From the NCBI GenBank assembly GCA_017962315.1, contig JAGCVN010000042.1, positions 16,031 to 80,030 of the forward strand: a DNA stretch of 64,000 bases. Reading direction: 5' to 3'. The translations under genes were made by a program, and so were the position numbers. The notes below the pieces were generated by a model. It saw only the letters and a program-made list of their open reading frames with translations. It was not told the origin of the DNA and made no database searches. Every line of letters starts with the position of its first letter. Position 1 is the first letter of the stretch. The DNA is from Kiritimatiellia bacterium. GTDB taxonomy: Bacteria; Verrucomicrobiota; Kiritimatiellia; RFP12; UBA1067. Positions 1-61,972 of this stretch are shown piece after piece.

Positions 1-1038
1 GGCCTCGGCCAGCGCGTGGTTGCGGATTTTCGACCGCCCGGAAAGCACTTTCTCGACCGTGAGCCCGCGGGGCAGGCCGCCCGGCGACGTAATTTCCACG
101 CGCGTGTCGTACACGGCGACGAAGATCGGCGCGTCATGTTCGAAATAGTTGCGATGAGTAAAGGCGTTGACCACGAGTTCGCGCAAGGCGTCCGGGGGAA
201 GTTCGTAGAGGTCCCTTCGCTGGATGCCCTCGAACACGCAGCCCATGTTGATCTTGGACAGGATGTACTTGTGCGCATCCTCGATCTGCTCGTAGATAGG
301 GCCGGTGAATTCGCGGCGGTCAACGAACACGGCCTTCGAATCCCCCTTGAACACGCCGCACTTCACGCGTGTCGCAAACGCCCTGTCGCCTGTCAGCAGC
401 GCATACGTGTTGGACGCAATCCAGCAGTTCCGCGACTTGGAAATGATGCCCCATTCCTGGAGTTGATTTGCCGTAATCTTCTTGACCGCTTTGCGCTCCG
501 ATTCGTCTCTCGCGTTTCTGCGCGCAATGCGATACATGTTGGCGCATAGCGCGGCGATGCGGGCATCGGTGATCTTCGCGTTTGGGCAGGGTTCGCTGTC
601 AAAACTTCGGCCTTCGGCCTCCAGTTCCAGTTCGTGTCGTGTTGCATCGTCGGCGCGTTGAGTCGTGGCGCCTACGCGGACATAGACCCCATCCTTGTCG
701 CCCTCCGCCTTGATGAAATACGGACATCGCGAACCTGCAAGCACGTCAAGGACGATGACCGATTTGCCATCCACATTCTCGATGCCGATATCGATCGGAA
801 CATGCGGCGAACAGGCGTTGCAGATGGAATTCGCTATGCCATCCATTTCCACGAACACCCTTGACTTGCCGATTCCGGTCACCGATCCATCGTTCGCAAT
901 GCCGAAAAGGACCGTGCCTCCCTTCCCATTCGCGAATGCGACCACCGTCTTCAAATACCTGATTCGCTCTTCGTTGGGCACGCGCTTGAATTCAAGATCA
1001 TACCCCTCACCTTGCCTGATTGCCTCGCGAATGTCCAT
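1..1038 (-). CDS. AlbA_2/Schlafen-like divergent AAA domain plus HATPase_c_4 (RecG-C-terminal-like) ATP-binding protein; N-terminal ~346 aa, C-terminus runs off the window start
   Basis: Minus-strand ATG at 1038, 3 nt after the stop of the upstream gene. My hand translation MDIREAIRQGEGYDLEFKRVPNEERIRYLKTVVAFANGKGGTVLFGIANDGSVTGIGK... matches the divergent-AAA 'FANxxGGxxxxGV' signature; open to position 1. The + strand ORF 16..549 is the GC-driven shadow of this gene. Confidence 0.6.
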   Translation of the reverse strand, partial: MDIREAIRQGEGYDLEFKRVPNEERIRYLKTVVAFANGKGGTVLFGIANDGSVTGIGKSRVFVEMDGIANSICNACSPHVPIDIGIENVDGKSVIVLDVLAGSRCPYFIKAEGDKDGVYVRVGATTQRADDATRHELELEAEGRSFDSEPCPNAKITDARIAALCANMYRIARRNARDESERKAVKKITANQLQEWGIISKSRNCWIASNTYALLTGDRAFATRVKCGVFKGDSKAVFVDRREFTGPIYEQIEDAHKYILSKINMGCVFEGIQRRDLYELPPDALRELVVNAFTHRNYFEHDAPIFVAVYDTRVEITSPGGLPRGLTVEKVLSGRSKIRNHALAEA

Positions 1039-1040
1039 AA

Positions 1041-2180
1041 CTACTGCCCCTCTTTCTTGCGGTTTCGCTTTTCCTGATTCATTTTGATTAGGTCGGCGTA
1101 GCGGAACGGCTCCTTGTGCGTCCAGTCCATGATGCTGCAGTAGAGGCCGTTGTGAAGGAAAATGCCGTCGAGGGGCTTCTTGAACTTGCAGCCGTGACAG
1201 GGCCTTGTCAAGGGAAGTTCCTTTTCGGGCTTAGCCAAAGACGTTTCGGGTTCTCCAAACAATTCCATTTGCACGGGCTTCGGCCGGGGCGGATCGAAGG
1301 GTTCGTCATGGCAGGTCATGGGGACGACGCATTTCAGGCCGTCCATCTGCCAGATATTCCAGCTGATGATGTCGGCAAGTTCCAGAAGCGTCTCGTGGTC
1401 CAGCGGTTCCGCCGTGCAGTAGAACTTGTAGTATTCCAGCATCGTGTAGAGGATGTTCTCGCGGGCGATGAGCAGATTGTCGCCCTGCCACTCGAAGCCG
1501 AGCGTGGCCTTAAGGGCGAGAAGGGCGTATTTCAGCCATTCGTCCGGTTTCGTGCCGACGTTCTCCGTGACGATGCGGAGCTTCCGGTCAAGGATGCCGA
1601 TGCGATTCGGCACTGGGATGACCTCGCCCGTGGTCGTATCGTAGCGGCTCACCAGAAACGGCCCCTCGCCGCAGCACATCTCCAGACAGCGGTATTTGAC
1701 GTAGTCCAGCCACGTGTGTTCCGGCGTGTCCGGGAACTCCACCTTGCCGGGGAAGCGCTTCCAGCCCTCGTCGCGGCTTCCCTCCGTGGTGAAGGGCGCC
1801 GGCTTGCGGTCGAACCAGGCGGCGTCGAACTCGTTAATCATGTTGTTGCATATCCACGACGGCGTGAAGACCTCCGCCTTCTTTTGGATGCGCTCCTTCT
1901 GCTCGGCCTTGCTCTTGTCCACGCGGGGACGGATGATCTTGTTTCCCGGACGGGAGATTACGTCGGCGTCGATCTCGTCCTGCATACACATCTTCTTGTC
2001 GAAAACAGATTCAAGGTGCTCATACCCATCTGTCATCCACATGATGTTCTTGCCGGTCGTCCGATCAGCAAGAAGGATGTCGAGGACATCGCGCGGAATA
2101 TCCGATTCAAGGATGTCCCGCGTGAAATCCGGGATTATCACATCGCGCGCAAGGGCGTTATCTGTCGGACGGTCGCTCAT
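1041..2180 (-). CDS. methyltransferase-like protein (gamma-class motif X 'EVFTPSWICNNM' and motif I 'LEMCCGEGPFLV' present, no NPPY/F motif IV; C-terminal Cys/His cluster CHGCKFKK...H..C)
   Basis: 379-aa ORF; the motifs were read from the translation. Stop is 3 nt before the next gene and the start abuts the 34-aa uORF, so it is operonic. Family identity not resolved. Confidence 0.45.
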   Translation of the reverse strand: MSDRPTDNALARDVIIPDFTRDILESDIPRDVLDILLADRTTGKNIMWMTDGYEHLESVFDKKMCMQDEIDADVISRPGNKIIRPRVDKSKAEQKERIQKKAEVFTPSWICNNMINEFDAAWFDRKPAPFTTEGSRDEGWKRFPGKVEFPDTPEHTWLDYVKYRCLEMCCGEGPFLVSRYDTTTGEVIPVPNRIGILDRKLRIVTENVGTKPDEWLKYALLALKATLGFEWQGDNLLIARENILYTMLEYYKFYCTAEPLDHETLLELADIISWNIWQMDGLKCVVPMTCHDEPFDPPRPKPVQMELFGEPETSLAKPEKELPLTRPCHGCKFKKPLDGIFLHNGLYCSIMDWTHKEPFRYADLIKMNQEKRNRKKEGQ

Positions 2181-2285
2181 TCACTTTGCCTTTTCGCCGC
2201 TGTCAAATAGACCTGCTTCTTCCCTGTTGTTCTGCAAAACGCGGTGAATCAGTTCGTCATGAACCTCGTCAAGTCGTATTCTCAT
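2181..2285 (-). CDS. 34-aa leading ORF MRIRLDEVHDELIHRVLQNNREEAGLFDSGEKAK; N-terminus resembles a ribbon-helix-helix beta-strand plus helix A
   Basis: Reverse complement of 2181..2285 translates cleanly. Its TGA is immediately followed by the ATG of the 1041..2180 gene. GAGGAAGG lies about 12 nt upstream. Too short for a confident call. Confidence 0.3.
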   Translation of the reverse strand: MRIRLDEVHDELIHRVLQNNREEAGLFDSGEKAK

Positions 2286-2558: not shown

Positions 2559-3464
2559 TTACTTCACGACAACCGTGACACCAGCTGGCAGGGCGCCATC
2601 GGCCGGAACGTCCAACGTGTAGTCAGCGAACTTGCGGGGGACGGCGACGTCGGACTTCTTCTCAATCTTGACGAGGTCGAAGAGCTTGTGGGAGGGGGCG
2701 TTGCCGAGGGCGGAATCGTGCTTGAAGACGATGAGCTTCTGCGTCGCCATCATCCCGCGGGCGGCGGAATGATCCTGATCGAACATCCCGACGAGTGCCT
2801 CCCACAGGAGCGCGAGGTCCTCTTCCGAGAAGCCAGTCTGCTTGGCGAGCGCCGGGGAGACGAAGCCGTAGGCGACGTAAAGGCCGTAGGGAACGGTGTT
2901 CTTGCGGCCCATGGTGCGGTTGTCACCGCTCTGCTTCTCGGCTTCGGCCTCAGTCGCAACGGCCATGCGGGTAATGGAGTGCTCTGCTGTGACAACGGGA
3001 TCGACGGATCGGGCGAACGTGATCTGGACGGGACCGCGAACCTGTCCGGCATTGGCCCCTGTGGACATAACCGCACCAAATGTCCGGATGTCGAAGTAGA
3101 CCTGGCACATCTTGTTGCGGGCTCGGAAGACTTCTTCCCCCTGTCCCTGTCCGGTCTTGTTACGCTTCTTCCCATCGGCATCCGCCTTCGACAGGTCGAT
3201 TCCAAGGTCTGCGTACGCCTTCTCGATCTGCTGGTTGAGGATCGCCTTCTCCTTGACGAAGATGTCGTAACCGGGTTCCGTACCCTTAATGAGTAGGACG
3301 TAGTTGCGTACCTTGCGCTTGATGCAGACATCGGTGACGAGGCCTTCGCCCGTCTCAGTGTCGATGCGGGGGAGATTTCCGGCGTCGGGGTCGCCGTTGG
3401 GGTTGCCGTCCTTCACGTCAAAGAGAAGCATGAAGTCGTAGCGGTTCTTGAGTTCAGTAGCCAT
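2559..3464 (-). CDS. cas7: type I-C CRISPR-associated Cas7 (Csd2)
   Basis: [35 protein letters not shown]... is the characteristic Csd2/Cas7c N-terminal signature; 301 aa. Confidence 0.92.
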
Positions 3465-3494
3465 GGTGGGGTCTCCTTGTTCGTTGGTTAGTGA

Positions 3495-5261
3495 TCAGAG
3501 TGAAAGTTCTGTTTGAACGGTATCGTCGGATTCGGATGTCGACGCAGCATCGCCGACGCCGCTGTCCTTGGTTTTCCTGCCGACGAAGAAATCCTGCCGC
3601 TGGTGGTAGTAGCCGATGGCGAACATACCCTGGTCTTCCAGCGAAAGATGGGAGGGGAAGGCGGCGACGCTGGAAAGGATTTCGCCGATGAGCTCCTCGA
3701 AGAACGCTGTTTTCGGGAGCTTGGCGAGATGGTGGTTCTTGAGCCGCATCAGGTTGCCAAAGACGGCGGCCGGCGTGGCGGATGCCGAGGCGTAGAACCT
3801 GTCGCGGATGGTAGCGTTGATGCCGGGGTTGGCGGCCTGCTGGATGCGCTCCAGAACGGCGAAGAGTCGGCCAAGACGATAGCCGACATTGGGGTTGTCC
3901 TTGTCGAGACTCATGGCGAGTTTCCTTTCGGGGTTGAGGTTGCGGTTTATGAAAGCCTTGACGAGCTTGGCGCGAGGGTAAGTGACATCGCGTTCCGCCT
4001 TGATGCGGACAATGGCCGACGAAAGCAAGGTCGCGGGATAGGGCGTTCCTTCAAGGATGCTCCGCATGACGGCGCCGGCGAGATTGGGAGGAATGTTCGC
4101 TTTCCACTTTTGGTAGTCTTTGTTATGGAGCGCAAGCGAAAGCAGCAACTGCGTAAGGGAAAGATGCTCCTTGTCCTTTGGGCCATGGACGATGCGGAGG
4201 TTTTCGAACCAGTCCGCAAAGCGCCTCTCCATTTCCGCGACCGTCCCCTCGTGCCAAAAGCGGACGGAAATGCGCGCGGAATTGGGCGAGAGACCGAGAA
4301 CATAGAAGCGCGCGGTGCCGCCTTCGTGGGCATAGGCACCCGACCGAACGGAACCGAGGAGTCGCTCCACGGCATCAACGCCGCGATCGGGGTCGTCCTT
4401 CTGGGGTTCGCGGAAAAGGTCCGCAAATTCATCTTCAAGGGTACTCTTCTCCGAAGACCAGAAGACGGTCGTGGCATCGCCGACATACATCTTTTGCCGG
4501 GAACTAGCCAAAAGCGCATTGAGTGCTGTGGTATAGGCGAACTCGGCTTCTTGACCAACTGGAGAATTGTAGCTTTGCTCCCTCCCGAACGATTCCGCTG
4601 CATCCCAGTTGAATGAAATGAGACTTCCTCGGTTTTTATCGGTTCCCAATACGCCAACTATTTTGTGATGAGTTCGTGAAATGATAGCCCGGCTTCCCGT
4701 CACCAGACACACACCATCGGGGACTTCCCCAGTTGATGACAAATGCGCATTGTACGCTTGAACAAAGTCTCCTTCGCAAGGAACGGGTTTCTCATGTCCT
4801 GCAATTATGAAAGTAGCAACAGCCCCTGTCTGGATGTACTCAGACCAATTGCCGTCACCCTTCAATCGCTCCGTATCAAAATGTTCTGTCAAGAATCGTC
4901 GAACGGATGCGACGGAAGGTAGGTCGTCAGCAAACTGGTTGAGACGGGTCAAAAATAGTGTATGCTTTTTGTCTGCATCTGTTCCTTGCGCAACGCCTGG
5001 AAAAGCATACTCCGCTTTGTCCCAGAGAGTAAATGCGGCCGGATTTCTTGTGCGGACGACAGATTGAGGCACAAGAAATCGTTTCGCGATCTTTCTCTTG
5101 CCGACAATTTCGCGAGTATCCTCAATTCTTACGAATTGTCCGTCATCCGTTATGACGAACAAAAAAGGAATCTCCTTCCATTCCCACCCGAGCGGGGCGA
5201 TGCCAGAATCGGGGTCAGCGGCCTTGCGGTCGTAGTATTCCTTGAGAGCCTGGAGAATCAT
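3495..5261 (-). CDS. cas8c: type I-C CRISPR-associated Cas8c (Csd1) large subunit
   Basis: N-terminus MILQALKEYYDRKAAD... typical of Csd1; 588 aa. Its start overlaps the cas5 stop (ATGA). Confidence 0.9.
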   Translation of the reverse strand: MILQALKEYYDRKAADPDSGIAPLGWEWKEIPFLFVITDDGQFVRIEDTREIVGKRKIAKRFLVPQSVVRTRNPAAFTLWDKAEYAFPGVAQGTDADKKHTLFLTRLNQFADDLPSVASVRRFLTEHFDTERLKGDGNWSEYIQTGAVATFIIAGHEKPVPCEGDFVQAYNAHLSSTGEVPDGVCLVTGSRAIISRTHHKIVGVLGTDKNRGSLISFNWDAAESFGREQSYNSPVGQEAEFAYTTALNALLASSRQKMYVGDATTVFWSSEKSTLEDEFADLFREPQKDDPDRGVDAVERLLGSVRSGAYAHEGGTARFYVLGLSPNSARISVRFWHEGTVAEMERRFADWFENLRIVHGPKDKEHLSLTQLLLSLALHNKDYQKWKANIPPNLAGAVMRSILEGTPYPATLLSSAIVRIKAERDVTYPRAKLVKAFINRNLNPERKLAMSLDKDNPNVGYRLGRLFAVLERIQQAANPGINATIRDRFYASASATPAAVFGNLMRLKNHHLAKLPKTAFFEELIGEILSSVAAFPSHLSLEDQGMFAIGYYHQRQDFFVGRKTKDSGVGDAASTSESDDTVQTELSL

Positions 5262-6067
5262 TTGAAAACCTCCTCGGAGTCGGGATGCGGGACGATGATG
5301 ACGCCATCGACCATTTTGGGTCGGTAGAACATGGGCTTGATGTCCTTCAGATCGGAATAGTCCATGTCGTAGAGCATGAAGCCGAGGTCGCGCGTCTCGG
5401 AAATGGGGCGGTCCGGTTCCGCCTCGGGGTGCTTCACGAGGCGGATTTCCCGGCAGGAGAACTCGCGGCAGCCGAGGTAGGGGTGCATGAAATACTGGCC
5501 CTTGGTGGCGCGGCGGTCGAACATGGCGGCGTATTTCGCCTCCTTCTCGTCGGGCTTCGCCTCGGCTTGGCGGTATAACTCCACCTCATCGGCGTCGGCC
5601 AGCCATTCCGGGGGCGGATTGACGGCCGGGGAACGCTCCTCGGGCGGAATGAAGTCGAACTCGGCGTAGAGCCTGTAGCGGACATCGCGCAGAATGAGTC
5701 CTGCGCGCTGCTGGCGTGCGTCCTCTACAAAAATGCCATCCGAACGCGGGCTGGCGACGGCGGACACCTCGTTGCGGCGGACGGAGGTCCAGCGAATCGG
5801 GTTCATCACCTCGATCCGCGTGATGCGCCAGCGGATGGCGGGCTTCCAGAAGATCGCGCTGAAGACGCCGCGTGCGGCGGACGGCGTGATGACGTCGTAG
5901 CTCACGCGCTCGACCTTCATCTCGGGCCGCGTGAAGCAGGCGAAGTCGCTTGAAACGTCTAGGCAGAATCCTTGCCTATAAGTTCGATTGGCGACAACCG
6001 AAACAACTTGTAAAGACAGCATCCTTCTTTCGCCGCGCAACGGCGCGGCGTTTTCATAACCGCGCAT
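5258..6067 (-). CDS. cas5: type I-C Cas5 (Cas5d, pre-crRNA-processing subunit); start uncertain (ATG at 6067 or 6022; the ORF track extends to a TTG at 6088)
   Basis: ...DFACFTRPEMKVERVSYDVITPSAARGVFSAIFWKPAIRW... matches the Cas5d core (GDYACFTRPE...SY.V.TPSAARGI). The 4-nt overlap with cas8c is typical. Confidence 0.85.
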   Translation of the reverse strand: MRGYENAAPLRGERRMLSLQVVSVVANRTYRQGFCLDVSSDFACFTRPEMKVERVSYDVITPSAARGVFSAIFWKPAIRWRITRIEVMNPIRWTSVRRNEVSAVASPRSDGIFVEDARQQRAGLILRDVRYRLYAEFDFIPPEERSPAVNPPPEWLADADEVELYRQAEAKPDEKEAKYAAMFDRRATKGQYFMHPYLGCREFSCREIRLVKHPEAEPDRPISETRDLGFMLYDMDYSDLKDIKPMFYRPKMVDGVIIVPHPDSEEVFK

Positions 6068-6090
6068 GGTTGTGCGCGGAAGAAGCAAAC

Positions 6091-6160
6091 GTTGTTTTCA
6101 AGTTGTTCAAGTTGTTTTCAGAAACTTACCCTCATCTACATTCCCGCGTGCAGCGCGGGC
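6091..6160. promoter_or_regulatory. cas3-cas5 intergenic element: triple tandem direct repeat GTTGTTTTCAA-GTTGTTCAA-GTTGTTTTCAG followed by hairpin CCCGCG-TGCAG-CGCGGG
   Basis: Seen directly in the 101-nt gap between the cas3 stop (6190) and the cas5 start. Candidate operator or internal promoter region for cas5-cas8c-cas7. Confidence 0.3.
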
Positions 6161-6189
6161 GGGGGCTTTCATGTGGGTCCTTTCGTTGT

Positions 6190-7710
6190 TCAAATGATGT
6201 TGTCCTCTATGGAGAGGCCGTCGCGAAACAAATCAAGGCCGAAACGTTCGCTGTAGGCGGACGGCATCGTCTGGACGAAGATGCCGGATGGAATGTCGGG
6301 CTTTTTGGGGACGCAAAGTTCCTCGACAAGGCCCTTTTCAATCAATTCGGCGAGCTTTTTCTTTGGGACATTCACGGTGAAGCGCTGTAGACGGCGCATA
6401 ATGTCGCGTTTCGGTCCTGCGGCGCGAAGCGATGCGATGAGAGCGTCGCTGCCTCCATAGCGGACGATGACGGCGGCCTGTGCCGAGTCGTCGATCATCT
6501 GGAAGGCTGCGGCGGCCTCGCGGAACTGGTAATGCATGGGTTCCGCGATTCTTCGCGTCGTCCCGTTGCGGAATTCCAGCGGTACGGGTACGCCAAGCCA
6601 CGACTCGAATTCGACGCCGAGATTTTGGATTCGATGGTGCAACGCCCGGAAATAGTCGGGGAAACTGCTTACTTCATCGGGATCGACGCCTCCGGGACGG
6701 TCTAGGAGGTCGCTCATGGCGTATTCCCCCTGGAGCAATTCACCCTTGGGGGATTGCTCCGGCGGCATGAAAACGATGACGCGACCCGGCTCCGGCAGAA
6801 GCCCTTCCCGGTTACACCGTCCAGCAGACTGCGCGATGGAGGCGAGACCCGTGAACGCACGATAGACCACGGGAAAGTCGATGTCCACCCCGGCCTCGAC
6901 AAGCTGGGTGCTGATTACGCGGACGGGTTCGCCGTCCGCCAGCTTGCGTTTGATTTCGCCGATGACGCGCGAGCGGTGGGCGCCGCACATGCTTGCGGAG
7001 AGATGGATGGTGTCTTCCGGCATTTTGTCAAAGAGGGCGCGGCAGTCGCGGCGCGTGTTTACGACGCAGAGGACACGCTCGTGGCCGCACAATTCCGCGG
7101 CGATCTCGTCCCACGTTTTCCGGGTGTTTCGATCAACTGGGAATTCGATGCGTACCCTTTTCAGCCGATGGTACAGGTCAAGGGACGGAGGGGCGATTTC
7201 CCGTATCGAGGCCGTATCAATGCCGGGGAGGTTCAACTGGGTGGCCGTTGAAAGGACGAACGAAACCCTGTAGTGAGATGCGAGCTGTCGCATCGCCTCG
7301 GCGCATGGGAGGAGAAGCTTGGAGGGCAGCAACTGCACCTCGTCAAGGATCACGACGCTTTCGGCGATGTTGTGGAGCTTGCGGCACCGGCTCGACTTGC
7401 AGGCGTACAGGGACTCGAAGAACTGGACGGACGTCGTGACAATGACCGGCGCGTCCCAGTTCTCGGAGGCGAGGCGAGACTGTCTCGTCTCCTTGTCGGG
7501 ATCGAAGTTAGAATGGTGCTCCAGCACATTGTCCGGGCCAAGGATGTCGCGTAGAACATCGGCCGTCTGCTCGATGATGGACGTGTAGGGAATCACGTAG
7601 ATGATGCGCTTGAGTCCATGGCGCAAGGCGTGTCGGAACGCGAACGCCGTTCCCGAAAGCGTCTTTCCCCCGCCCGTCGGGACGGTCAGCGAAAAGAGGC
7701 CTGGCGGCAA
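6190..7710 (-). CDS. cas3: Cas3 helicase part (SF2 helicase; Walker A 'PTGGGKT', DEVQ box); TTG-initiated ORF lying in frame 23 codons downstream of the HD-domain ORF
   Basis: MPPGLFSLTVPTGGGKT...VVILDEVQLLP...; 506 aa. Continuous reading frame with 7780..8445 except for one TGA. Confidence 0.85.
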   Translation of the reverse strand: MPPGLFSLTVPTGGGKTLSGTAFAFRHALRHGLKRIIYVIPYTSIIEQTADVLRDILGPDNVLEHHSNFDPDKETRQSRLASENWDAPVIVTTSVQFFESLYACKSSRCRKLHNIAESVVILDEVQLLPSKLLLPCAEAMRQLASHYRVSFVLSTATQLNLPGIDTASIREIAPPSLDLYHRLKRVRIEFPVDRNTRKTWDEIAAELCGHERVLCVVNTRRDCRALFDKMPEDTIHLSASMCGAHRSRVIGEIKRKLADGEPVRVISTQLVEAGVDIDFPVVYRAFTGLASIAQSAGRCNREGLLPEPGRVIVFMPPEQSPKGELLQGEYAMSDLLDRPGGVDPDEVSSFPDYFRALHHRIQNLGVEFESWLGVPVPLEFRNGTTRRIAEPMHYQFREAAAAFQMIDDSAQAAVIVRYGGSDALIASLRAAGPKRDIMRRLQRFTVNVPKKKLAELIEKGLVEELCVPKKPDIPSGIFVQTMPSAYSERFGLDLFRDGLSIEDNII

Positions 7711-7779
7711 TTCCGCCGCCTGTTCGCAGGCGGCGCGGATTCCCGCGCGGATGCGGTTTACGTCGGTGTCCGGGGCGGT

Positions 7780-8445
7780 TCACTGTTTTTCGTCCAGATG
7801 CGCGAAGAACGCATCGGCAAGGGCGGAAAGTGGCTGTCCGAAGGAGCGGTTTGCGCTTTGCGCCGGATCCATGAACGCCTCCGTGTCGAGAAAGTCGGCA
7901 TCGACGAGACTCGAGTACATCATGCGAATCCAGAACGACAGAGAAGAGTCGTCGCGGCCGAACGGGAAAGGCGGTGCTAGCCGTTCGCGGAGCCAGTCGG
8001 CCTCATGGGACGCGATCCACTCGCGAACGGGTGGTTCCGCCAAAACGGCAGCGTCCTCATTCAGCCGAACGGCAAGAGCGCCATTTGGCGTGTCCCCGCC
8101 GGACCAGTCGGGGAGGCCGGCATGGTGGCCGGCGATGCAGTAGGACAGAGCCGTGCCAATGCCGCCGGCATTTTGGGCCAGCCAGCACGCCCCCGCACCG
8201 GAATGCGAATGGTCGCCAAAGTCCAGATCGGCATCCTCGACGCCGTTGCAGCGGCGCAAATAGGACTGGAACGCGCTCCTCGCCTTTCCTGTGTCATGCG
8301 TTTCGCCTTCCAGCCGTCCATGTTTGCCACTTGCAAATGAATCGGCAAACGCTTCTGACAATTCAGCGACAGCCTTACTATGAGATCGCAAGGTCTGCCA
8401 TTCTGTCATCGGTGCGTTTTCTCGGCTATGAGCAAAAAAATCCAT
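7780..8445 (-). CDS. cas3: Cas3 HD nuclease domain part (HD-phosphohydrolase motifs H..HD..H..H..D)
   Basis: FFAHS...ETHDTGKA...GDHSHSG...AGHHAGLPD...LVDADFL; 221 aa, ending at a TGA that is in frame with the helicase ORF. Confidence 0.8.
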   Translation of the reverse strand: MDFFAHSRENAPMTEWQTLRSHSKAVAELSEAFADSFASGKHGRLEGETHDTGKARSAFQSYLRRCNGVEDADLDFGDHSHSGAGACWLAQNAGGIGTALSYCIAGHHAGLPDWSGGDTPNGALAVRLNEDAAVLAEPPVREWIASHEADWLRERLAPPFPFGRDDSSLSFWIRMMYSSLVDADFLDTEAFMDPAQSANRSFGQPLSALADAFFAHLDEKQ

Positions 8446-8618: not shown

Positions 8619-9680
8619 ATGTTTCCGAAGGGTGATTTCAAAGTTGGCGAGAGGATTCGCGCTTGGCGCAAAAAGCGCAATATGATCCAGAAAGAGCTTG
8701 CCGCAGCGATCGGAATGGATGTTACGCAGCTGTGGTCGATCGAAAAGGATCGCAACAGTCCGTCCGTGCGCACGCTTGAACGCATTGCGCGGGCGTTACG
8801 TGTTCGTGTCCCGGAACTTCTAGAGCTACCGTCCGTGGATGATTCGATGGGGGTACTTTCTGTGTCGGACAACAGCTGGTCCGCCTGTTTGAACGTGGAA
8901 TGCGATGATTTACGTCGGCTATCCAGACCTGAACAGGGAACCGACCTTGCAGAAGGAGAGGTGCGCAGATTACTTTCAGAGTTGTCGGAAGCGATTCAAA
9001 CTGAGACGAAGCATCAGACGGAGATGCAGACCTCGCTCCCGCTTCAGTTTCCGATCGTCAAGAGCGAGGCCGGGGCGGAGCAGCTTGCACGAGCGGTCAG
9101 GGCGCACTGCGATATCGGCTCTGCCATTATTCGTGACGTGCAGATCCTTTTCGAAACATACGGGGTACGTGTTCTTGACACGCGATTTTCGAACGGGGTT
9201 GAGGCCGTGACGTTCTACAGCGCGATCCAACGAAACTTTACGGTTTTCCTTTCCGCCACTCTTTTGCAGAAACCATGGCGGAGGGATTTCATATTCCTGT
9301 CCGAAATCGGGCGGATGTTCCTATTTGTTTCCGGCTTGTTTGAAACCTATCGGGAATCCAAAATCGGTCGTCGTTTCGTGCATCACTTTGCCGCGGCTTT
9401 CTTGCAACCGGAACAGACGATTCGTGCGACGGTTTACAGCCTTCGCGTGAAACCGGACGACTGGACATACGAGCTTCTGTTGCGCATGAAAGAACGCTTT
9501 GGGGTATCGGCCGAGGCATTCGCGATACGATTGAAGGAACTGGCTCTTATCTCCCGGCGTAAGTTCGAAGTGTTCAAAAAGCAGATCATACAATACTACG
9601 CATCTCACAACTACGATGAACCCATGGCAAAAGAGCGCAGACCCGGTAGGGCATTTGACCTCGCCGCGCTCTCAACATGA
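8619..9680 (+). CDS. XRE-family HTH transcriptional regulator with C-terminal ImmA/IrrE-like (COG2856/DUF955-type) domain; no clean HExxH seen
   Basis: N-terminal IRAWRKKRNMIQKELAAAIGMDVTQLWSIEKDRNSPSVRTLERIARAL is a canonical XRE HTH. The C-terminal ~230 aa has the architecture of ImmA-type anti-repressor peptidases, but the metal motif looks degenerate (RFVHHFAAAF). Confidence 0.55.
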   Translation: MFPKGDFKVGERIRAWRKKRNMIQKELAAAIGMDVTQLWSIEKDRNSPSVRTLERIARALRVRVPELLELPSVDDSMGVLSVSDNSWSACLNVECDDLRRLSRPEQGTDLAEGEVRRLLSELSEAIQTETKHQTEMQTSLPLQFPIVKSEAGAEQLARAVRAHCDIGSAIIRDVQILFETYGVRVLDTRFSNGVEAVTFYSAIQRNFTVFLSATLLQKPWRRDFIFLSEIGRMFLFVSGLFETYRESKIGRRFVHHFAAAFLQPEQTIRATVYSLRVKPDDWTYELLLRMKERFGVSAEAFAIRLKELALISRRKFEVFKKQIIQYYASHNYDEPMAKERRPGRAFDLAALST

Positions 9681-9724: not shown

Positions 9725-10250
9725 ATAGTGGAATCGAGGGATTTCGTGCATGAGTGTGGGTCTGATTCAACCAGTAAAGGGCATTTTCGAGGTGCGAAAC
9801 GACGGTTTCCCGGGAAAACAACGGGAGGGAGACCTCGCGAGTTTTTGAACGCAGCCCCCCACTCGCTCCTCGGCGCGGGTGATTCGATTCGGATAACTTT
9901 CTATATTGTGCCCCCAGTAAACCGTGGGGTGAAGTTATAGACGAGACGAGAGGCGCAGAGAAAGGGCAACGGGGACGTTGCCCCTACCGGAAACATCGCC
10001 GACTACAGCCTATCCACCTGTTACGTTCCTTGCGCCGAATACCCGTACCTTGCAATCTGTTCTTCCATGCGCCTCCGCATTTCACTCAAACGGCAAGACG
10101 GGAAAGGAGAATCCATGTTTCGGCGAAATGCCCGATTGTCGGCAGAACACACCCACACGTATGACTGAAGAGCCGGAATCTGTTACGCGGAACGCATGAC
10201 CCTACCAATATTGTTCCAATGGGCGAGATGCCCGTTGTCCAAATTCCGCA
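9725..10250 (+). repeat. non-coding repeat element, copy 1 (module A ~9730-9985 ending in hairpin GGGCAACG-GGGA-CGTTGCCC; spacer; module B ~10085-10190 with micro-ORF MFRRNARLSAEHTHTYD behind AAAGGAG)
   Basis: About 85-90% identical over several hundred nt to the reverse complement of 58085..58690; module A also matches 56365..56495. No long ORF. Contains the perfect palindrome TTTCCCGGGAAA. Confidence 0.6.
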
Positions 10251-10252
10251 GC

Positions 10253-11275
10253 CTAGAACGCGGAGATGACCAGCTGGTTCGTGGTGTAGTGGCTGGTTTC
10301 TTTCTGGATGGCGAGCTTCCAGGCGGCGACGTCGAGATAATCCTGCCAACCATGACTCCATTCCAGTTCCGTTCCGATGAAGAGATGGAGGGGGACGAGG
10401 AGCTGGTCGGCGAGGTGCTTTTCGCACGCTTTGCCGGATTTCACGAAGTCGCGGATTTGGCGGACGACCTCATTTGCCACGGACTTGCGCGACTTGCCGT
10501 ATGTGCCGATGGCGGAGATGACGATCGTCGCACGCTCGTAACGGAGCCGCGTGCAACAGTAGTTTCCCGGTCCAAAGGCATCGACCTCACGCACAATGCG
10601 TTCCAGAGCGAGGTCACGCATCTGATTACCAACGATGCCGACTTCCGCCTCGGCAATCGAACGCGGAATGTGCGAGACAACGCCCTCGACGGTGCCACCT
10701 AGGTATGCGCCGAGGTCGGTCAAATCGTAGCACGCAGGGCACTTCGACTCGTCGTACGGCCAGACACGCAGTTTCACGACGCCGCCAGCGGCGGGGTAGA
10801 AACCGCACTGCTCCAGTTCCGCCTCCACGTGCGCGCCCATCCGCCGTAGTTCGGGAAGGTACGTTTCCGAGAAAAACTCCCAGATCGGCGCGAACGAGAC
10901 GTGCGTGCCACCCGTGATCGTGACCGTGGACGGCGTGTCCGCCCGCAGGAGGACGGGGATGACCGTCTGCGCGACGAGCGTGACGGAACCAGCCGTGCCG
11001 ATGTCGAACTGGTAGGTACCACCCTTGATTGCGCCCGGCTTGAACAAAAGACGCATGGAGCCGACCTCGTCGCCCTCCACCTGCGCACTGCAGATCTGCG
11101 CGACCGCACGAACGCATGTGAGGTGTTGGCGCTTGAGGCCGGGCTTGTCGCGTTTCACGCGGATGTTCAGCATCTCGAATGGTTTGCCGTAGGCGGCGCT
11201 CAACGCGAGCGAGGTGCGGAGGATCTGCCCGCCACCCTCGCCCTGCGAGCCGTCGATGGTGATTGGATTATCCAT
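10253..11275 (-). CDS. rtcA: RNA 3'-terminal phosphate cyclase RtcA
   Basis: MDNPITIDGSQGEGGGQILRTSLALSAAYGKPF... is the RtcA N-terminal signature; 340 aa. Confidence 0.9.
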   Translation of the reverse strand: MDNPITIDGSQGEGGGQILRTSLALSAAYGKPFEMLNIRVKRDKPGLKRQHLTCVRAVAQICSAQVEGDEVGSMRLLFKPGAIKGGTYQFDIGTAGSVTLVAQTVIPVLLRADTPSTVTITGGTHVSFAPIWEFFSETYLPELRRMGAHVEAELEQCGFYPAAGGVVKLRVWPYDESKCPACYDLTDLGAYLGGTVEGVVSHIPRSIAEAEVGIVGNQMRDLALERIVREVDAFGPGNYCCTRLRYERATIVISAIGTYGKSRKSVANEVVRQIRDFVKSGKACEKHLADQLLVPLHLFIGTELEWSHGWQDYLDVAAWKLAIQKETSHYTTNQLVISAF

Positions 11276-22307: not shown

Positions 22308-22479
22308 GCCACGCTCACCGGGAGGGACGCCCCCCCCGCATCCGTTAGCGAGGTGGGGTGAGCCGTCCCGGCGAGCCGAATGTTTTAGGTTTTTCGAGGA
22401 AAACTGTGGAAATGTTCGTGATCTTTAACCCTCATTATCCATGACTCGACAATCCCGATTCCCTTCTAGCACACGGATT

Positions 22480-22565
22480 TGTTCGCCGTTGACGCGGCTC
22501 ACATCCTCCTCGCGAACGCCGGTAGGCGTGAGCAAATCCGTTTGTTTGCTTTCATCGGATGCGGG
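22480..22565. repeat. partial copy of the repeat family (module C: stem-loop ACGGATTTG...CAAATCCGTTTG, shares 'GGCGT(G/A)AGCAAATCCGTTTGTT' with 58137-58165)
   Basis: Direct comparison with 58085..58170; ~80-nt hairpin-containing segment in a 500-nt non-coding gap. Confidence 0.4.
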
Positions 22566-48554: not shown

Positions 48555-48630
48555 CGGTTTCAATGTAAACGCAGAGGGGCAACATCCTCCGTCGCCCGAA
48601 TCGGGAGGGATGCCCTCCCGATCCCGGTTC
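48555..48630. repeat. short relative of the repeat family ('AAACGCAGAGGGGCAAC' plus hairpin CGGGAGGG/CCTCCCG)
   Basis: Shares the 'TTGAACGCAG...AGGGCAACGGGG' motif with copies at 9.9, 56.4 and 58.3 kb. Confidence 0.25.
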
Positions 48631-56364: not shown

Positions 56365-56495
56365 AAGAGAGTTGCGTATACTTTGGGGATTTCGTTCATG
56401 AATGTGGGGCAGATTCAACCGGCAAGGGGAATCTCGCTCGTTTTTTGAACGCAGAGACACAGAGAAAGGGCAACGGGGACGTTGCCTGTCTGCAG
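56365..56495 (+). repeat. repeat element copy 2: internally deleted module A (5' block GGGATTTCGTTCATGAATGTGGGGCAGATTCAACCGGCAAGGGG joined to 3' block ...GAACGCAGAGACACAGAGAAAGGGCAACGGGGACGTTGCC)
   Basis: Both ends align to copy 1 at 9735-9790 and 9935-9985; the middle ~150 nt is absent. Confidence 0.5.
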
Positions 56496-57903: not shown

Positions 57904-58084
57904 ATTCCCTCCCCTATTTGAACTCTACAGCCTCATCGCACTTCGTCGCCAGTTTACCAGAAGAAGGGCGGCATGGGCAACATTTTAACCCAAATTCCTC
58001 TATTCCTTTTACCGGACAACGGTTTTATCTCACACGGATGTGCGGAGATTTTGTAGCTTCACGGCGGTTTTACGGAACGAGTTG

Positions 58085-58690
58085 AATGATAACAAACGGA
58101 TGGGTTCGAACCTAACGGTACTCACGGTCCGCGAACGGCGTCAGGCGTAAGCAAATCCGTTTGTTCTGCGAAATCGGACAACGGTTTTTATCGGATCTTC
58201 AGGCATTCGTACGGGTGTTTTATGCCGACTTCCGGGCATTTCGCCGAAACATGGATTCCCCTTTCCCGTCTTTTCGCTTGATTGAAACGCAGAAATGCAG
58301 AGGCGCAGGGAACGCAAAGGGGGGCAGGTTGTCGTCGACGATGATTCAGAGAGGGGCAATTTCCCCATTGTCCGAATCGCCCCTCGCCGCATCCGCGCCG
58401 TCTTGGGAGGGGTAACGTCCTCGTTACCCGTTCTCGTCTATAACTTCACCCCTCGGCTTGCTGTGCACAGTATAGCAAGTTATCCGAATCGAATCACTCG
58501 CGCCGAAGTGCGAGCGGGGGGCTGCGTTCAAAAAACTCGCGAGGTCTCCCTCCCGTTGCTTTCCTGGGAAACCGTCGTTTCGCACCTCGAAAATACCCTT
58601 TACCGGCTGAATCAGCCCCACACTCATGCACGAAATCCCTTTTTATCTCACGAAAAGGTACCTTGACACGGAGATTCCGCACGCTTGCGG
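58085..58690 (-). repeat. repeat element copy 3 (modules C, B, A on the minus strand; inverted relative to copy 1); hairpin variant GGGTAACG-AGGA-CGTTACCC; micro-ORF variant MFRRNARKSA
   Basis: The reverse complement aligns to 9725..10250 at ~85-90%; it lies upstream of and co-oriented with folC. Confidence 0.6.
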
Positions 58691-58795
58691 CGGTTTAGCG
58701 TGCGGTTTTCGGTTCTTTCTCTGCGTACCCTGCGGCTCTGTGTGAGATTTTCAAACGAGGTTTCTAAGTTTAGATTTACCGTTGTTGAACACATT

Positions 58796-58843
58796 TCTTT
58801 TCAAACGCGATACGACTGGGGGAGTCGCATCGCGTTTGAAAAG
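58796..58843. promoter_or_regulatory. 48-bp near-perfect palindrome (21-bp arms CTTTTCAAACGCGATACGACT / AGTCGCATCGCGTTTGAAAAG, GGGGG loop)
   Basis: Read directly; one mismatch in the arms. Sits ~90 nt upstream of vapB between repeat copy 3 and the vapBC promoter. Confidence 0.4.
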
Positions 58844-58873
58844 AAACGATCCTTGAAATGACGAAGTAACGGA

Positions 58874-58903
58874 TTGACAGCACGACAGGGAAGGCGATAC
58901 TAT
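58874..58903 (+). promoter_or_regulatory. sigma70-like promoter TTGACA-N18-TACTAT upstream of vapBC
   Basis: Read directly. Confidence 0.3.
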
Positions 58904-58931
58904 ACGTGCACACGTAAAAAGGACTGCGCGT

Positions 58932-59183
58932 ATGAATATCACATTGTCGGATCCCCAAAGTGTCGTCCAAAATGTGCGAAATTGGGCGGAAGAACGGGGC
59001 ATCAGCCTCAACAGCTATATTCGCGACCTTCTGGTTGCGAAGGATCGGGAGATTTGCGAGGAGCGCAAATCTTTTGCGGATGCGTCCTACTCGTTCGCGC
59101 TTGCGAATTCGATAGAGATGGAACCGGACTACAAATTTAGCCGAGAGGACGTGGCAGAACGTGTTATGGCTTGTGACAGATGA
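58932..59183 (+). CDS. vapB: VapB-type antitoxin (small DNA-binding protein)
   Basis: 83 aa, 4-nt overlap with the PIN-domain gene. Confidence 0.55.
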   Translation: MNITLSDPQSVVQNVRNWAEERGISLNSYIRDLLVAKDREICEERKSFADASYSFALANSIEMEPDYKFSREDVAERVMACDR

Positions 59184-59533
59184 GATTCCTTGACACGAAT
59201 ATCCTTGTCTATGCCGCAAGTCGGCAGAATTTGAAAAAACGCGATATTGCGTTGCATATTGTGCGCCATGCGCTTGAGGAAAGCAACAATGGCGTAATCT
59301 CGCTTCAAATCCTGCAAAAATTCACGACTGTCATGTTGAAGCGCTCGTTGGCGGCGGACGAGCAGATTGAAGGATACTACACGTATTTCTATAAACTTGT
59401 TAGAACTGAAGTGACATCCGATATGCTTCGTGATGCAATTCATATCAGAAAGGAATACGGCACTCAGTATTACGATGCGGCATCGTGTCCGTTAACCCGT
59501 TCAAGGCGAGGGATGAGAAATGAAGCCCGATAA
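59180..59533 (+). CDS. vapC: PIN-domain toxin VapC with atypical/truncated C-terminus
   Basis: MRFLDTNILVYA (Asp5 motif), ...YYDAAS (third acidic motif) present; the usual C-terminal T.D.DF block is replaced by CPLTRSRRGMRNEAR and overlaps the methyltransferase start. Confidence 0.7.
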   Translation: MRFLDTNILVYAASRQNLKKRDIALHIVRHALEESNNGVISLQILQKFTTVMLKRSLAADEQIEGYYTYFYKLVRTEVTSDMLRDAIHIRKEYGTQYYDAASCPLTRSRRGMRNEAR

Positions 59534-61070
59534 CCATAGAATCGTACTGGTCGGCACGTACCGGCATGAGAACGAGGCGTGGATACGCGAACGCAGACTC
59601 TACAATCTGCCTCTGCCGGAGTCTATTAGCCACAAAGCACGCAAAGGTCGCAAAGAAGATGGGGCGGTCGCCCTACCGTTCCACCGGAACATTGGCGGTA
59701 TCGTGCTGTTTGCCGAGGGACATTCCAACTTTGCGTTCAAGGCGAAGTTCAAGGATGTCGTCGATGGCGAATGGTTGAAAAAGAACGGCTATTCGCTTGC
59801 GGCTAAACCGCATGGCGAGAAGTATGCCCTCTATGAACTGTGCGAGGAATCCACGCCCGCGAAGTTGTTAGGGCGAAAGACGGCCGAGGTGTTCGTCTGC
59901 TCGTCGCGCTGTCCGTGCGTGAAGATCGACGAGGCGTTCTATTCCAAACCGTACCCCGTCACCGGCGGCAAGTCGATGCCCTACGTTTTTGACTGCCTCA
60001 AACCCTACTTCCGCAAGTGGAAATCGGCTACGACGTTCGATCCTGTTCAGGAGGATTTCTTCCAGAACAGCTTTGGTTTTGATTACGGTTTGCAGGTCGC
60101 ACGAGGGATTGTGGAGGAAGCGAAACGGGACGGGGCGTTGACCTGCGTTGAAATATGCGCGGGTGCGGGGGGACAGGCTCTTGGACTTGACAAGGCGGGG
60201 TTCAAGCATGTCGCGCTTGTCGAATACGAAAAAGAGTATTGCGATGTCCTCCGTGCGAACAAGCCAGGGTGGAATGTGATTTGCGGTGACGTGCATGAGT
60301 TTGACGGGACGCCATATCAGGGTGTGGATCTGCTTGCCGGCGGTGTTCCGTGTCCGCCGTTTTCAGTCGCGTCAAAGCAACTTGGAGAAGACGATGAAAG
60401 GGATTTGTTTCCGCAGGCGATAAGGCTCATATCGGAGATTCGTCCGCGCGCCGTGATGCTGGAAAACGTGCGCGGATTCCTCGATCCGAAGTTTGACGCA
60501 TACAGGAACAACATTCTGAATGCGATACGTCGCCTTGGTTACCGTGTGGATATCAAGCTCCTTCAGGCAAACGATTTTGGCGTTCCGCAGATTCGTCCGC
60601 GCGTTGTTATCGTAGGCATACGCAAGGATGAGGGATGTTCGTTCAGTTATCCCGAGGCGAATCGCAGGGCCGCACCTTCCGTCGGAGAGGCGTTGAGGGA
60701 TATGATGGGAGCGAATGGATGGAGAGGTCTTGATACTTGGGTTGCGCGAGCAAACAAAATTGCCCCGACTATTGTGGGGGGGAGCAAGAAGCACGGCGGA
60801 CCGGATCTTGGCCCGACACGGGCACGGCGGGCGTGGGATGAACTTGGTGTTGACGGACTTGGGGTCGCCAACGAGCCGCCGGCGAGGGACTTTGTTGGGA
60901 ATCCGAAACTTACGAAAGAAATGATAGCGAGGATTCAGGGTTTCCCGTCGAATTGGAATTTCGGCAAGCGCAAGACCGCCGCATGCCGTATGATTGGAAA
61001 TGCATTTCCGCCGCCGGTTGCTCGGGCAGTTGGCGTCCAGATCAGAAAGGTGTTGAGTAATGAAGAATAA
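59520..61070 (+). CDS. DNA (cytosine-5)-methyltransferase with ~190-aa N-terminal extension of unknown function
   Basis: Motif I EICAGAGGQALG, motif IV GGVPCPPFS (PC), motif VI LENVRGF, motif VIII QANDFGVPQ.RPR. The N-terminal domain (MKPDNHRIVLVGTYRHENEAW...) is unassigned. Confidence 0.85.
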   Translation: MKPDNHRIVLVGTYRHENEAWIRERRLYNLPLPESISHKARKGRKEDGAVALPFHRNIGGIVLFAEGHSNFAFKAKFKDVVDGEWLKKNGYSLAAKPHGEKYALYELCEESTPAKLLGRKTAEVFVCSSRCPCVKIDEAFYSKPYPVTGGKSMPYVFDCLKPYFRKWKSATTFDPVQEDFFQNSFGFDYGLQVARGIVEEAKRDGALTCVEICAGAGGQALGLDKAGFKHVALVEYEKEYCDVLRANKPGWNVICGDVHEFDGTPYQGVDLLAGGVPCPPFSVASKQLGEDDERDLFPQAIRLISEIRPRAVMLENVRGFLDPKFDAYRNNILNAIRRLGYRVDIKLLQANDFGVPQIRPRVVIVGIRKDEGCSFSYPEANRRAAPSVGEALRDMMGANGWRGLDTWVARANKIAPTIVGGSKKHGGPDLGPTRARRAWDELGVDGLGVANEPPARDFVGNPKLTKEMIARIQGFPSNWNFGKRKTAACRMIGNAFPPPVARAVGVQIRKVLSNEE

Positions 61071-61941: not shown

Positions 61942-61972
61942 AGCATGGCGCATAAAAAAGGATTCTGTGGAC

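What the first reader, a model, noticed from the sequence alone, without database searches (positions are those of the whole stretch)
9725..10250. Family of structured non-coding repeat elements (five or more loci in 64 kb), with a compensatory base-pair change in a conserved hairpin
A ~500-nt intergenic block downstream of rtcA recurs nearly full-length in inverted orientation at 58085-58690, as an internally deleted version at 56365-56495, and as shorter fragments at 22480-22565 and 48555-48630. None has a credible long ORF. The terminal hairpin is GGGCAACG-GGGA-CGTTGCCC in copies 1 and 2, and GGGTAACG-AGGA-CGTTACCC in copy 3. That is a C:G to T:A double substitution preserving the stem. Another stem shows a T-A to T-G wobble change. 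This argues for selection on RNA (or cruciform) structure. The elements contain the palindrome TTTCCCGGGAAA and a 5' block GGGGCTGATTCA reminiscent of, but not identical to, the tmRNA 5' end.
Basis: seen in the sequence. Interest (0 to 1): 0.7.

Follow-up and report, generated by a model that had tools for sequence, protein, structure and literature searches.

The report
Small non-autonomous transposon (MITE) copies
The repeated ~440-base intergenic block is a miniature, transposase-less mobile element with imperfect inverted ends and duplicated target sites, so it is an ordinary kind of genomic parasite rather than a new structured RNA gene, though it carries one oddly well-conserved 32-codon reading frame.

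Summary
The repeat is real but smaller than claimed. There are three loci, not five: two full copies (A 9738-10174 +, B 58639-58193 -) and one internally deleted relic (C 56386-56486 +). The locus at 22467-22554 is a different ~75-nt palindromic repeat that also lies next to copy B. The locus at 48555-48630 is not a copy. Both full copies are flanked by direct repeats flush with the homology boundary: GATAAAAA/GATAAAAA for B and GGAATCGA/GGAATCTG for A. Their ends are imperfect inverted repeats in exact register (16/25 and 14/25). Removing B restores a sequence that occurs uninterrupted about 160 nt away. The right end reads GGCTCTTCA. Together with an 8-bp duplication, this is the published signature of ISL3-family insertion sequences and their MITEs. 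The element encodes no transposase, and none is annotated on 81 kb of the scaffold. There is no Rfam, tRNA or tmRNA hit. The hairpin's compensatory C:G to T:A change is real, and there is a second one, but palindromes in a MITE do not need RNA-level selection to explain them. One puzzle remains: a 32-codon ORF starting inside the left end differs between A and B only at six synonymous third positions. Verdict: a new member of a known kind, of low interest.

The parts
9738..10174 (+). Copy A, full-length element (437 nt), in the convergent intergenic space between the HTH/M78-peptidase gene (8619-9680 +) and rtcA (10253-11275 -)
   Evidence: neighbouring genes
9730..9737 (.). Left target-site duplication of A, GGAATCGA (first 6 nt identical to the right copy)
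10175..10182 (.). Right target-site duplication of A, GGAATCTG
9738..9762 (+). Left inverted repeat of A, GGGATTTCGTGCATGAGTGTGGGTC
   Evidence: 16/25 in register with the right end, p about 1e-4
10150..10174 (-). Right inverted repeat of A; read inward it is GGCTCTTCAGTCATACGTGTGGGTG (ISL3-like tip GGCTCTTC)
   Evidence: literature
9750..9848 (+). 32-codon ORF (MSVGLIQPVKGIFEVRNDGFPGKQREGDLASF, plus stop), starting inside the left inverted repeat. It differs from copy B only at six synonymous third positions.
   Evidence: called as a gene in other assemblies
9860..9881 (+). Conserved hairpin CACTCGC-TCCTCG-GCGCGGGTG; two one-sided wobble-compatible changes relative to B
9964..9983 (+). Hairpin GGGCAACG-GGGA-CGTTGCCC. 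On the opposite strand it is followed by TTTCTCT, giving a terminator-like shape facing rtcA.
10104..10168 (+). AAGGAG-N5-ATG mini-ORF (17 codons in A, 10 in B) in the conserved 3' block; the reading frame is not conserved
58193..58639 (-). Copy B, full-length element (447 nt), between a restriction-modification operon and the Mur-ligase-family gene
   Evidence: neighbouring genes
58640..58647 (.). Target-site duplication of B on the left-end side, GATAAAAA (read on the minus strand)
58185..58192 (.). Target-site duplication of B on the right-end side, GATAAAAA (read on the minus strand); 8/8 identical to the other side
58424..58627 (-). ORF of copy B. The first 32 codons give the same peptide as in A. 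An extra T in the T-run extends it to 67 codons, and this tail is not conserved.
58410..58429 (-). Hairpin B1, GGGTAACG-AGGA-CGTTACCC (C:G to T:A relative to A and C)
58353..58373 (-). Hairpin B2, GGACAAT-GGGGAA-ATTGCCCC. It is a tandem second hairpin module with another C:G to T:A pair and two unpaired positions.
56386..56486 (+). Copy C, an internally deleted relic. It keeps the left inverted repeat, a truncated ORF (16 codons), the T-run block and the hairpin. It has no right end and no recognisable duplication.
58013..58078 (-). Uninterrupted paralogue of the sequence into which B inserted (...GTGAGATAAAACCGTTGTCCG); it serves as an 'empty site'

Best explanation
The blocks are copies of a ~440-bp non-autonomous DNA transposon: a MITE, or a small mobile cassette. 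Each full copy ends in ~25-bp imperfect inverted repeats. Each was inserted by a cut-and-paste DDE transposase supplied in trans, which duplicated about 8 bp of target DNA. The tips (GGGATTTCG... on the left, GGCTCTTCA... on the right) and the 8-bp, A/T-rich duplication fit the ISL3 family best. Copy C is a decayed, immobile derivative that lost internal segments at short microhomologies and lost its right end. The internal hairpins are palindromes carried by the element. On the opposite strand, the GGGCAACG hairpin followed by TTTCTCT may incidentally act as a terminator for the convergent gene (rtcA at A, the Mur-ligase-family gene at C). Shown: the repeats, the duplications, the inverted ends, the empty site and the absence of a transposase. 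Inferred: ISL3 as the mobilising family, trans-mobilisation and the terminator effect.
For: 1. Direct repeats lie flush with the A/B homology boundary. B has GATAAAAA on both sides (8/8). A has GGAATCGA/GGAATCTG (6/8, the first six perfect). The chance of two perfect 6-mers in register is about 6e-8.
2. The ends are inverted repeats in the register fixed by those duplications: 16/25 for A and 14/25 for B. Random window 25-mers reach this at p about 1e-4 and 1e-3.
3. Deleting B plus one duplication gives ...CGTGAGATAAAAACCGTTGTCCG.... This aligns over about 65 nt with an uninterrupted unit at 58078-58013.
4. Published ISL3 elements have inverted repeats starting GGCTCTTCG or GGGTATCCG and 8-bp direct repeats. 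[quoted passage not shown] The right end of A matches GGCTCTTCG at 8/9 and the left end at 6/9.
5. No ORF of the element hits Pfam, NCBIfam or PHROGs.
6. The ends are conserved, the core is variable and indel-rich, and there is a deletion derivative.
7. Contigs from four other assemblies stop inside or beside the element, at 9838, 9849, 10081 and 58047, as expected at multi-copy repeats.
Against: No autonomous partner was found. No transposase gene is annotated on 81 kb of the scaffold. The element has no relative in GTDB genomes, JGI metagenomes, viral contigs, plasmids or phages.

The inverted repeats are only about 60% matched. The duplication of A has two mismatches; a 6-bp model fits both copies perfectly but puts the inverted ends out of register.

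Only three copies are available. At about 440 bp the element is large for a MITE.

The 5' 110 nt are far better conserved than transposase binding alone would require, and the differences there follow a coding pattern.
Confidence: 0.8

Rival explanations
1. It is a family of structured non-coding RNA genes. The element would be transcribed as a ~440-nt RNA closed by a 5'-3' helix, with hairpins kept by selection on RNA structure.
For: Two compensatory C:G to U:A pairs occur in the 8-bp hairpin across four hairpin copies; 27 of 500 shuffles do as well. The terminal helix changes in B (CAC to GUA) keep G.U and U.G pairs on the sense strand only. The consensus fold has z -1.76 on the sense strand against +0.03 on the antisense strand.
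Against: No Rfam family matches, even at E up to 10. Single-sequence z-scores are similar on both strands. The statistics rest on two full sequences. The 5'-3' helix is the pair of inverted repeats, and target duplications and an empty site show DNA insertion. No promoter-like site lies in or before copy A. The core tolerates a 33-nt and a 29-nt indel and a hairpin duplication. Compensatory changes in DNA palindromes can also arise by template switching without selection (established knowledge).
Confidence: 0.08
2. It is a mobile small-protein gene. The element's payload would be the 32-residue peptide, possibly controlled by fold-back of the 3' end onto its ribosome-binding site and start codon, as in hok-type mRNAs. 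Transposon ends would merely carry it around.
For: A and B differ at 6 of 32 third codon positions and 0 of 64 first or second positions. All six changes are synonymous (P about 7e-4 for this frame, about 4e-3 for any phase). The third-position divergence (19%) equals that of the rest of the element. A GGGA motif lies 9-10 nt before the ATG. The start codon lies in the stretch that pairs with the 3' end in every predicted fold. Gene callers called the ORF in several assemblies.
Against: No homologue exists in 5.8 billion clustered proteins or 1.84 billion representatives, apart from the element's own copies. The only other hits are two weak ones to FG-GAP/VCBS-like repeat proteins, whose E-values are inflated by four to five near-identical repeats. 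The peptide has no hydrophobic segment long enough to span a membrane, unlike type I toxins (read from the sequence). Copy C has the ORF truncated to 16 codons. The stop context differs between A (T5, stop) and B (T6, a 67-codon unconserved tail). Copy C's own differences all fall in codon position 2, which warns that small-sample phase patterns occur here.
Confidence: 0.1
3. It is a CRISPR-associated RNA module, either a solitary degenerate repeat or a CreTA-like toxin-antitoxin RNA pair. Copy A lies two genes from a type I-C cas operon that has no array. The element also contains a hairpin followed by GTGATTCGATTCGGATAAC, loosely like type I-C repeat tails, and a strong SD-ATG-TTT-CGG-CGA mini-ORF.
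For: Proximity of copy A to cas3. No CRISPR array or cas1/2/4 on 81 kb. The resemblance to type I-C repeats is recalled from memory only.
Against: Copies B and C lie 46-48 kb away from any cas gene. The element has transposon ends and duplications. The mini-ORF is not conserved between A and B. The organism's real repeat sequence is unknown, so no match could be shown.
Confidence: 0.02

Closest known systems
ISL3-derived MITEs, e.g. the Microcystis aeruginosa MITE with GGCTCTTCG terminal repeats and 8-nt direct repeats (PMC11448079)
   Same: No transposase; terminal inverted repeats beginning GGCTCTTC-like; 8-bp target duplication; intergenic, multi-copy.
   Different: About 440 bp with only about 60% matched inverted repeats. 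The left tip is divergent (GGGATTTCG). It carries a conserved 32-codon ORF. No cognate ISL3 was found, and there is no sequence similarity beyond the tips.
ISL3-family insertion sequences (ISArsp7, PMC6305408; CLJ-ISL3/ISPpu12-like, PMC7643977)
   Same: Inverted-repeat tips of the GG(C/G)T.T.CG type, about 24 bp long and imperfect; 8-bp, often A/T-rich direct repeats.
   Different: Those are 1.4-3 kb and encode a DDE transposase. This element is 0.44 kb with none, and no ORF fragment hits an ISL3 transposase model.
Other bacterial intergenic repeat elements (Correia/CREE, ERIC/IRU, REP/BIME, RUP)
   Same: Short, hairpin-forming, intergenic repeats that can supply terminators or affect neighbouring genes. 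Their palindromes show compensatory changes.
   Different: Those are 35-200 bp with different ends and duplications (for example TA for Correia). There is no sequence similarity, and none is known to keep a 32-codon ORF.
Chromosomal type I toxin-antitoxin repeats (hok/sok, LDR ldr/rdl)
   Same: Repeated intergenic units of about 0.4-0.6 kb, each with a ~30-50-codon ORF whose start region can pair with the 3' end of the mRNA.
   Different: The peptide here is not hydrophobic. No antisense RNA is evident. The loci have transposon-type ends and target duplications. There is no homology.

Membership tests
MITE / non-autonomous DNA transposon | Terminal inverted repeats | tested here: met
   16/25 (A) and 14/25 (B) in exact register, p about 1e-4 and 1e-3
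MITE / non-autonomous DNA transposon | Target-site duplication of fixed length but variable sequence | tested here: met
   B has GATAAAAA x2 (8/8). A has GGAATCGA/GGAATCTG (6/8, first six perfect). The sequences differ between copies.
MITE / non-autonomous DNA transposon | Empty site recoverable | tested here: met
   The site reconstructed by removing B matches the uninterrupted paralogue at 58078-58013. No empty allele was seen in other strains.
MITE / non-autonomous DNA transposon | No transposase gene; short length | tested here: met
   437-447 nt; no Pfam, NCBIfam or PHROG hit for any ORF
MITE / non-autonomous DNA transposon | Multiple dispersed copies in the genome | tested here: inconclusive
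   Three copies on 81 kb. Contig breaks inside the element in other assemblies hint at more. The whole genome is not available.
MITE / non-autonomous DNA transposon | Autonomous element with the same ends in the same host | not testable with these tools
   None on the scaffold. DNA scans of public collections found no relative.
ISL3 family (as the source of the ends) | Inverted repeats beginning GGCTCTTCG / GG(G/C)T.T.CG | tested here: met
   The right end of A, GGCTCTTCA, matches at 8/9. The left end, GGGATTTCG, matches at 6/9. Identity to the ISArsp7 repeats is 11-13 of 24.
ISL3 family (as the source of the ends) | 8-bp direct repeats | tested here: met
   Perfect 8 bp at B; 6/8 at A, so a 6-bp model is not excluded
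ISL3 family (as the source of the ends) | ISL3-type DDE transposase (in cis or in trans) | tested here: not met
   Absent from the element and from 81 kb of scaffold. Its presence elsewhere in the genome is untested.
Known structured RNA family (Rfam) | Covariance-model match | tested here: not met
   No gathering-score hit in the window. Only chance-level hits at E up to 10.
Known structured RNA family (Rfam) | Significant covariation supporting a conserved fold | tested here: inconclusive
   One 8-bp hairpin has two compensatory pairs among four copies. The whole-element consensus has z -1.76 from two sequences.
tmRNA | tRNA-like domain plus tag reading frame | tested here: not met
   ARAGORN finds none and Rfam finds none. 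The GGGGCTGATTC match is present in one copy only.
Type I toxin-antitoxin locus | Small hydrophobic, membrane-active peptide | tested here: not met
   The peptide MSVGLIQPVKGIFEVRNDGFPGKQREGDLASF has no membrane-spanning hydrophobic stretch (read from the sequence).
Type I toxin-antitoxin locus | Antisense RNA antitoxin | not testable with these tools
   Needs transcript data.
CRISPR-derived RNA (solitary repeat / CreTA) | Similarity to the host's CRISPR repeat and position within a cas locus | tested here: inconclusive
   No array on 81 kb to compare with. Two of three copies are far from cas genes.

The most novel reading that the evidence does not exclude
The element is not a plain MITE. 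It would be a miniature transposon whose cargo is a translated 32-residue peptide kept under purifying selection, perhaps with its start site masked by pairing of the two transposon ends in the mRNA. That would make it a mobile micro-gene that lands in defence or variable islands.
Probability: 0.12. Interest if true: 0.5.

Novelty: new member of a known kind. Interest (0 to 1): 0.2.

Why it matters
The main value is for annotation. These blocks should be masked as mobile-element repeats and not reported as candidate RNA genes. They also explain why short-read assemblies of this organism break at these points. They mark the borders of variable, defence-rich regions: a type I-C cas module with rtcBA, and a restriction-modification island. 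If the 32-codon ORF proved to be translated, it would be an unusual case of a MITE carrying a conserved micro-protein.

Tried and rejected
- **tmRNA or tRNA-like origin:** ARAGORN and Rfam were negative.
- **Known RNA family:** Rfam was negative at gathering score and at E up to 10. This also argues against group II intron remnants and other large RNAs.
- **More copies:**
  - The 5'-block pattern gave 0 hits in GTDB genomes.
  - It gave 2 chance hits in JGI metagenomes, a pilin-like coding sequence and an unrelated contig.
  - It gave 0 hits in viral contigs.
  - Peptide-pattern scans of genomes and viral contigs gave no confirmed relative.
  - blastn against plasmids and phages, and tblastn against plasmids, gave nothing.
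- **ORF as the N-terminal remnant of a transposase:** there were no word-sharing proteins, no transposase among the phmmer hits and no HMM hit. The 90% cluster that groups the 32-residue peptide with 426-residue glycosyltransferases is a clustering artefact with no sequence similarity.
- **Composite transposon of C, the Mur-ligase-family gene and B:** the left ends face outward, but the outer flanks ATACTTTG and TTTTTATC do not match, so this was rejected (read).
- **CRISPR link:** there is no array anywhere on the scaffold.
- **Longer frames through the T-run:** these are inconsistent between A and B, and the tail changes are non-synonymous.
- **Taxonomy and sample origin:** these could not be established.

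Full report
**What is there**

BLAST and the repeat finder confirm that the block after 9737 recurs in inverted orientation at 58192-58640. The similarity is mosaic: 110 nt at 95%, 70 nt at 91%, a poorly conserved indel-rich middle, then 102 nt at 83%. A third locus, 56386-56486, keeps only three pieces: the first 47 nt, a ~20-nt block around a T-run, and a 34-nt hairpin block. These are joined at short microhomologies.

The two 'shorter fragments' do not belong to the family. 22467-22554 is a copy of a different ~75-nt palindromic repeat (arms ACAAACGGATTTG / CAAATCCGTTTGT). 48555-48630 has no detectable similarity. The window is part of an 88.8-kb metagenomic scaffold. The 81 kb of it that I could retrieve contain no further copy.

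**Context**

Copy A lies between two convergent genes. One is an HTH plus M78-peptidase protein (8619-9680 +). The other is rtcA (10253-11275 -), which follows rtcB. Upstream is a type I-C cas interference module. Copy B lies between a low-GC restriction-modification island (C5 methylase, NgoMIV-like enzyme) and a Mur-ligase-family gene. Copy C lies at the other end of that gene.

**Mobile-element anatomy**

The A/B homology boundaries are flanked by direct repeats. For B these are GATAAAAA on both sides (8/8). For A they are GGAATCGA and GGAATCTG, with the first six bases perfect.

With the ends fixed by those repeats, the first 25 nt and the reverse complement of the last 25 nt match without gaps. 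The match is 16/25 in A and 14/25 in B. Random 25-mers of the window reach this at about 1e-4 and 1e-3.

Removing B and one duplication yields ...CGTGAGATAAAAACCGTTGTCCG.... This aligns over about 65 nt with an uninterrupted unit about 160 nt away, at 58078-58013, which acts as an internal 'empty site'.

The element encodes nothing resembling a transposase. Contigs from other assemblies of the same population end at 9838, 9849, 10081 and 58047, that is, inside or beside the element, as assemblers do at repeats. Together these are the defining features of a non-autonomous DNA transposon.

**Which family**

The right end reads GGCTCTTCAGTCATACGTGTGGG and the left end GGGATTTCGTGCATGAGTGTGGG. Published ISL3 elements show the same pattern:

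- ISArsp7 has inverted repeats GGCTCTTCGCGG... with an 8-bp direct repeat (PMC6305408).
- A Microcystis ISL3 and its MITE share GGCTCTTCG tips and 8-nt direct repeats (PMC11448079).

The tips, the duplication length and the A/T-rich target at B therefore fit ISL3 best. No ISL3 transposase was found on the scaffold. A 6-bp duplication model cannot be strictly excluded for A. I put the MITE reading at about 0.8 and the ISL3 assignment at about 0.5-0.6.

**The RNA-structure claim**

The hairpin observation is correct and slightly richer than reported. A and C carry GGGCAACG/CGTTGCCC. B carries two tandem hairpins: one with C:G to T:A at stem position 4, the other with C:G to T:A at position 7 plus two unpaired positions. 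In an alignment of the four hairpins, 27 of 500 shuffles score as well.

Several one-sided changes keep G.U pairs on the sense strand, including in the terminal helix. However:

- The terminal helix is simply the pair of inverted repeats.
- Single-sequence folding z-scores are the same on both strands, -2.0 to -2.6.
- The two-sequence consensus fold reaches only z -1.76 on the sense strand and +0.03 on the antisense strand, against column shuffles.
- Rfam is negative.
- No promoter-like site precedes copy A.

Palindromes in mobile DNA can also acquire 'compensatory' changes by template switching (established knowledge). So selection on an RNA fold is not demonstrated.

On the opposite strand, the hairpin followed by TTTCTCT looks like a weak intrinsic terminator. 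It faces rtcA at copy A and the Mur-ligase-family gene at copy C. The scan flags it at C only, and such sites are not enriched over shuffles. This is a plausible side effect, not a shown function.

**The one odd feature**

An ATG inside the left inverted repeat opens a 32-codon frame, 9750-9848. A and B differ there at six positions. All six are third codon positions and all are synonymous. That is 6 of 32 third positions against 0 of 64 others (P about 7e-4 for this frame, about 4e-3 for any phase). The third-position divergence is about that of the rest of the element. A and B share one architecture, so this looks like purifying selection on a peptide after the non-autonomous element arose.

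Several things argue against taking this at face value:

- There are only two sequences.
- The peptide has no credible homologue. The only non-self hits are two proteins built from FG-GAP/VCBS-like repeats, whose scores add up over four to five near-identical repeats.
- An extra T in B extends the frame into an unconserved tail.
- Copy C truncates the frame.
- Copy C's own five differences all fall in another phase, which shows how easily such patterns arise in small samples (and my reading).

I record it as unexplained and give the 'mobile micro-gene' reading about 0.1.

**Verdict**

This is a real repeat family that is best read as a previously undescribed MITE with ISL3-like ends: two intact insertions and one relic. 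It is a new member of a well-known kind and is of low general interest. The conserved micro-ORF is the only feature worth a second look, once more copies are available.

Noticed in passing
window 2559-8445 (minus strand); L014; L002/L008/L009: A type I-C interference module (cas7, csd1/cas8c, cas5d, cas3 helicase, separate cas3 HD) has no cas1/2/4 and no CRISPR array anywhere on 81 kb of scaffold. In another strain (L002) homology with the window starts only at 8102 and the cas genes upstream are different (147-aa HD, 223-aa Cas5d, 721-aa protein).
   Followed up: partly
window 8619-9680 (+): A fused XRE-type HTH plus M78 (ImmA/IrrE-like) peptidase gene is transcribed divergently from cas3. 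It resembles the HTH/protease regulator pairs of other defence systems. This gene plus copy A is nearly identical between strains (2-3 differences in 2.1 kb), whereas rtcA next door differs by about 4%.
   Followed up: partly
L014 (scaffold upstream of the window) and window 1-2200: A dense defence island lies beside the cas genes: an SLFN/AlbA_2 ATPase, a 1375-aa Eco57I-like enzyme, a Cap4 nuclease, an SduA_C (Shedu-like) protein and DUF1016.
   Followed up: no
window 22467-22554 and 58091-58165: A separate ~75-nt palindromic intergenic repeat (arms ACAAACGGATTTG... / ...CAAATCCGTTTGT), probably another miniature element.
   Followed up: partly
window 58697-58641 + 58184-58166 (split by copy B), 58078-58013, and 10226-10252: A ~65-nt 'U' unit (GCGGAATCTCCG ... 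GAGATAAAACCGTTGTCCGATTTCGCAG) has its own short inverted ends. CCGTTGTCC occurs only three times in 64 kb, all within about 180 nt of the right end of a full copy (A or B). Both full copies inserted in or beside such a unit.
   Followed up: partly
window 58794-58846: A 24-nt-arm, 96% inverted repeat (TTTCTTTTCAAACGCGATACGACT / AGTCGCATCGCGTTTGAAAAGAAA) lies between copy B and the restriction-modification operon. A promoter-like site at 58874-58903 is just downstream of it. It may be an operator or a terminator.
   Followed up: no
window 58000-62000: A low-GC (51%) island carries two small ORFs (83 and 117 aa), a C5 cytosine methylase and an NgoMIV-like restriction enzyme. Copy B sits at its border.
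   Followed up: no
L017 16334-16537 (scaffold downstream of the window): A 67-aa ORF looks like the C-terminal fragment of an IS30-type transposase (judged from memory of the motif ...DRPLKCLNWHTPRETF). It is the only transposase trace on the scaffold.
   Followed up: no
window 56386-56432 versus 9738-9784: Copy C differs from A and B at five sites that all fall in one codon phase (position 2 of the ORF frame). One of them (56402) is reverted in another strain (L026).
   Followed up: partly
protein collection: The 32-residue peptide is filed in a 90%-identity cluster whose representative is an unrelated 426-aa glycosyltransferase. This is a clustering artefact affecting very short proteins.
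   Followed up: yes
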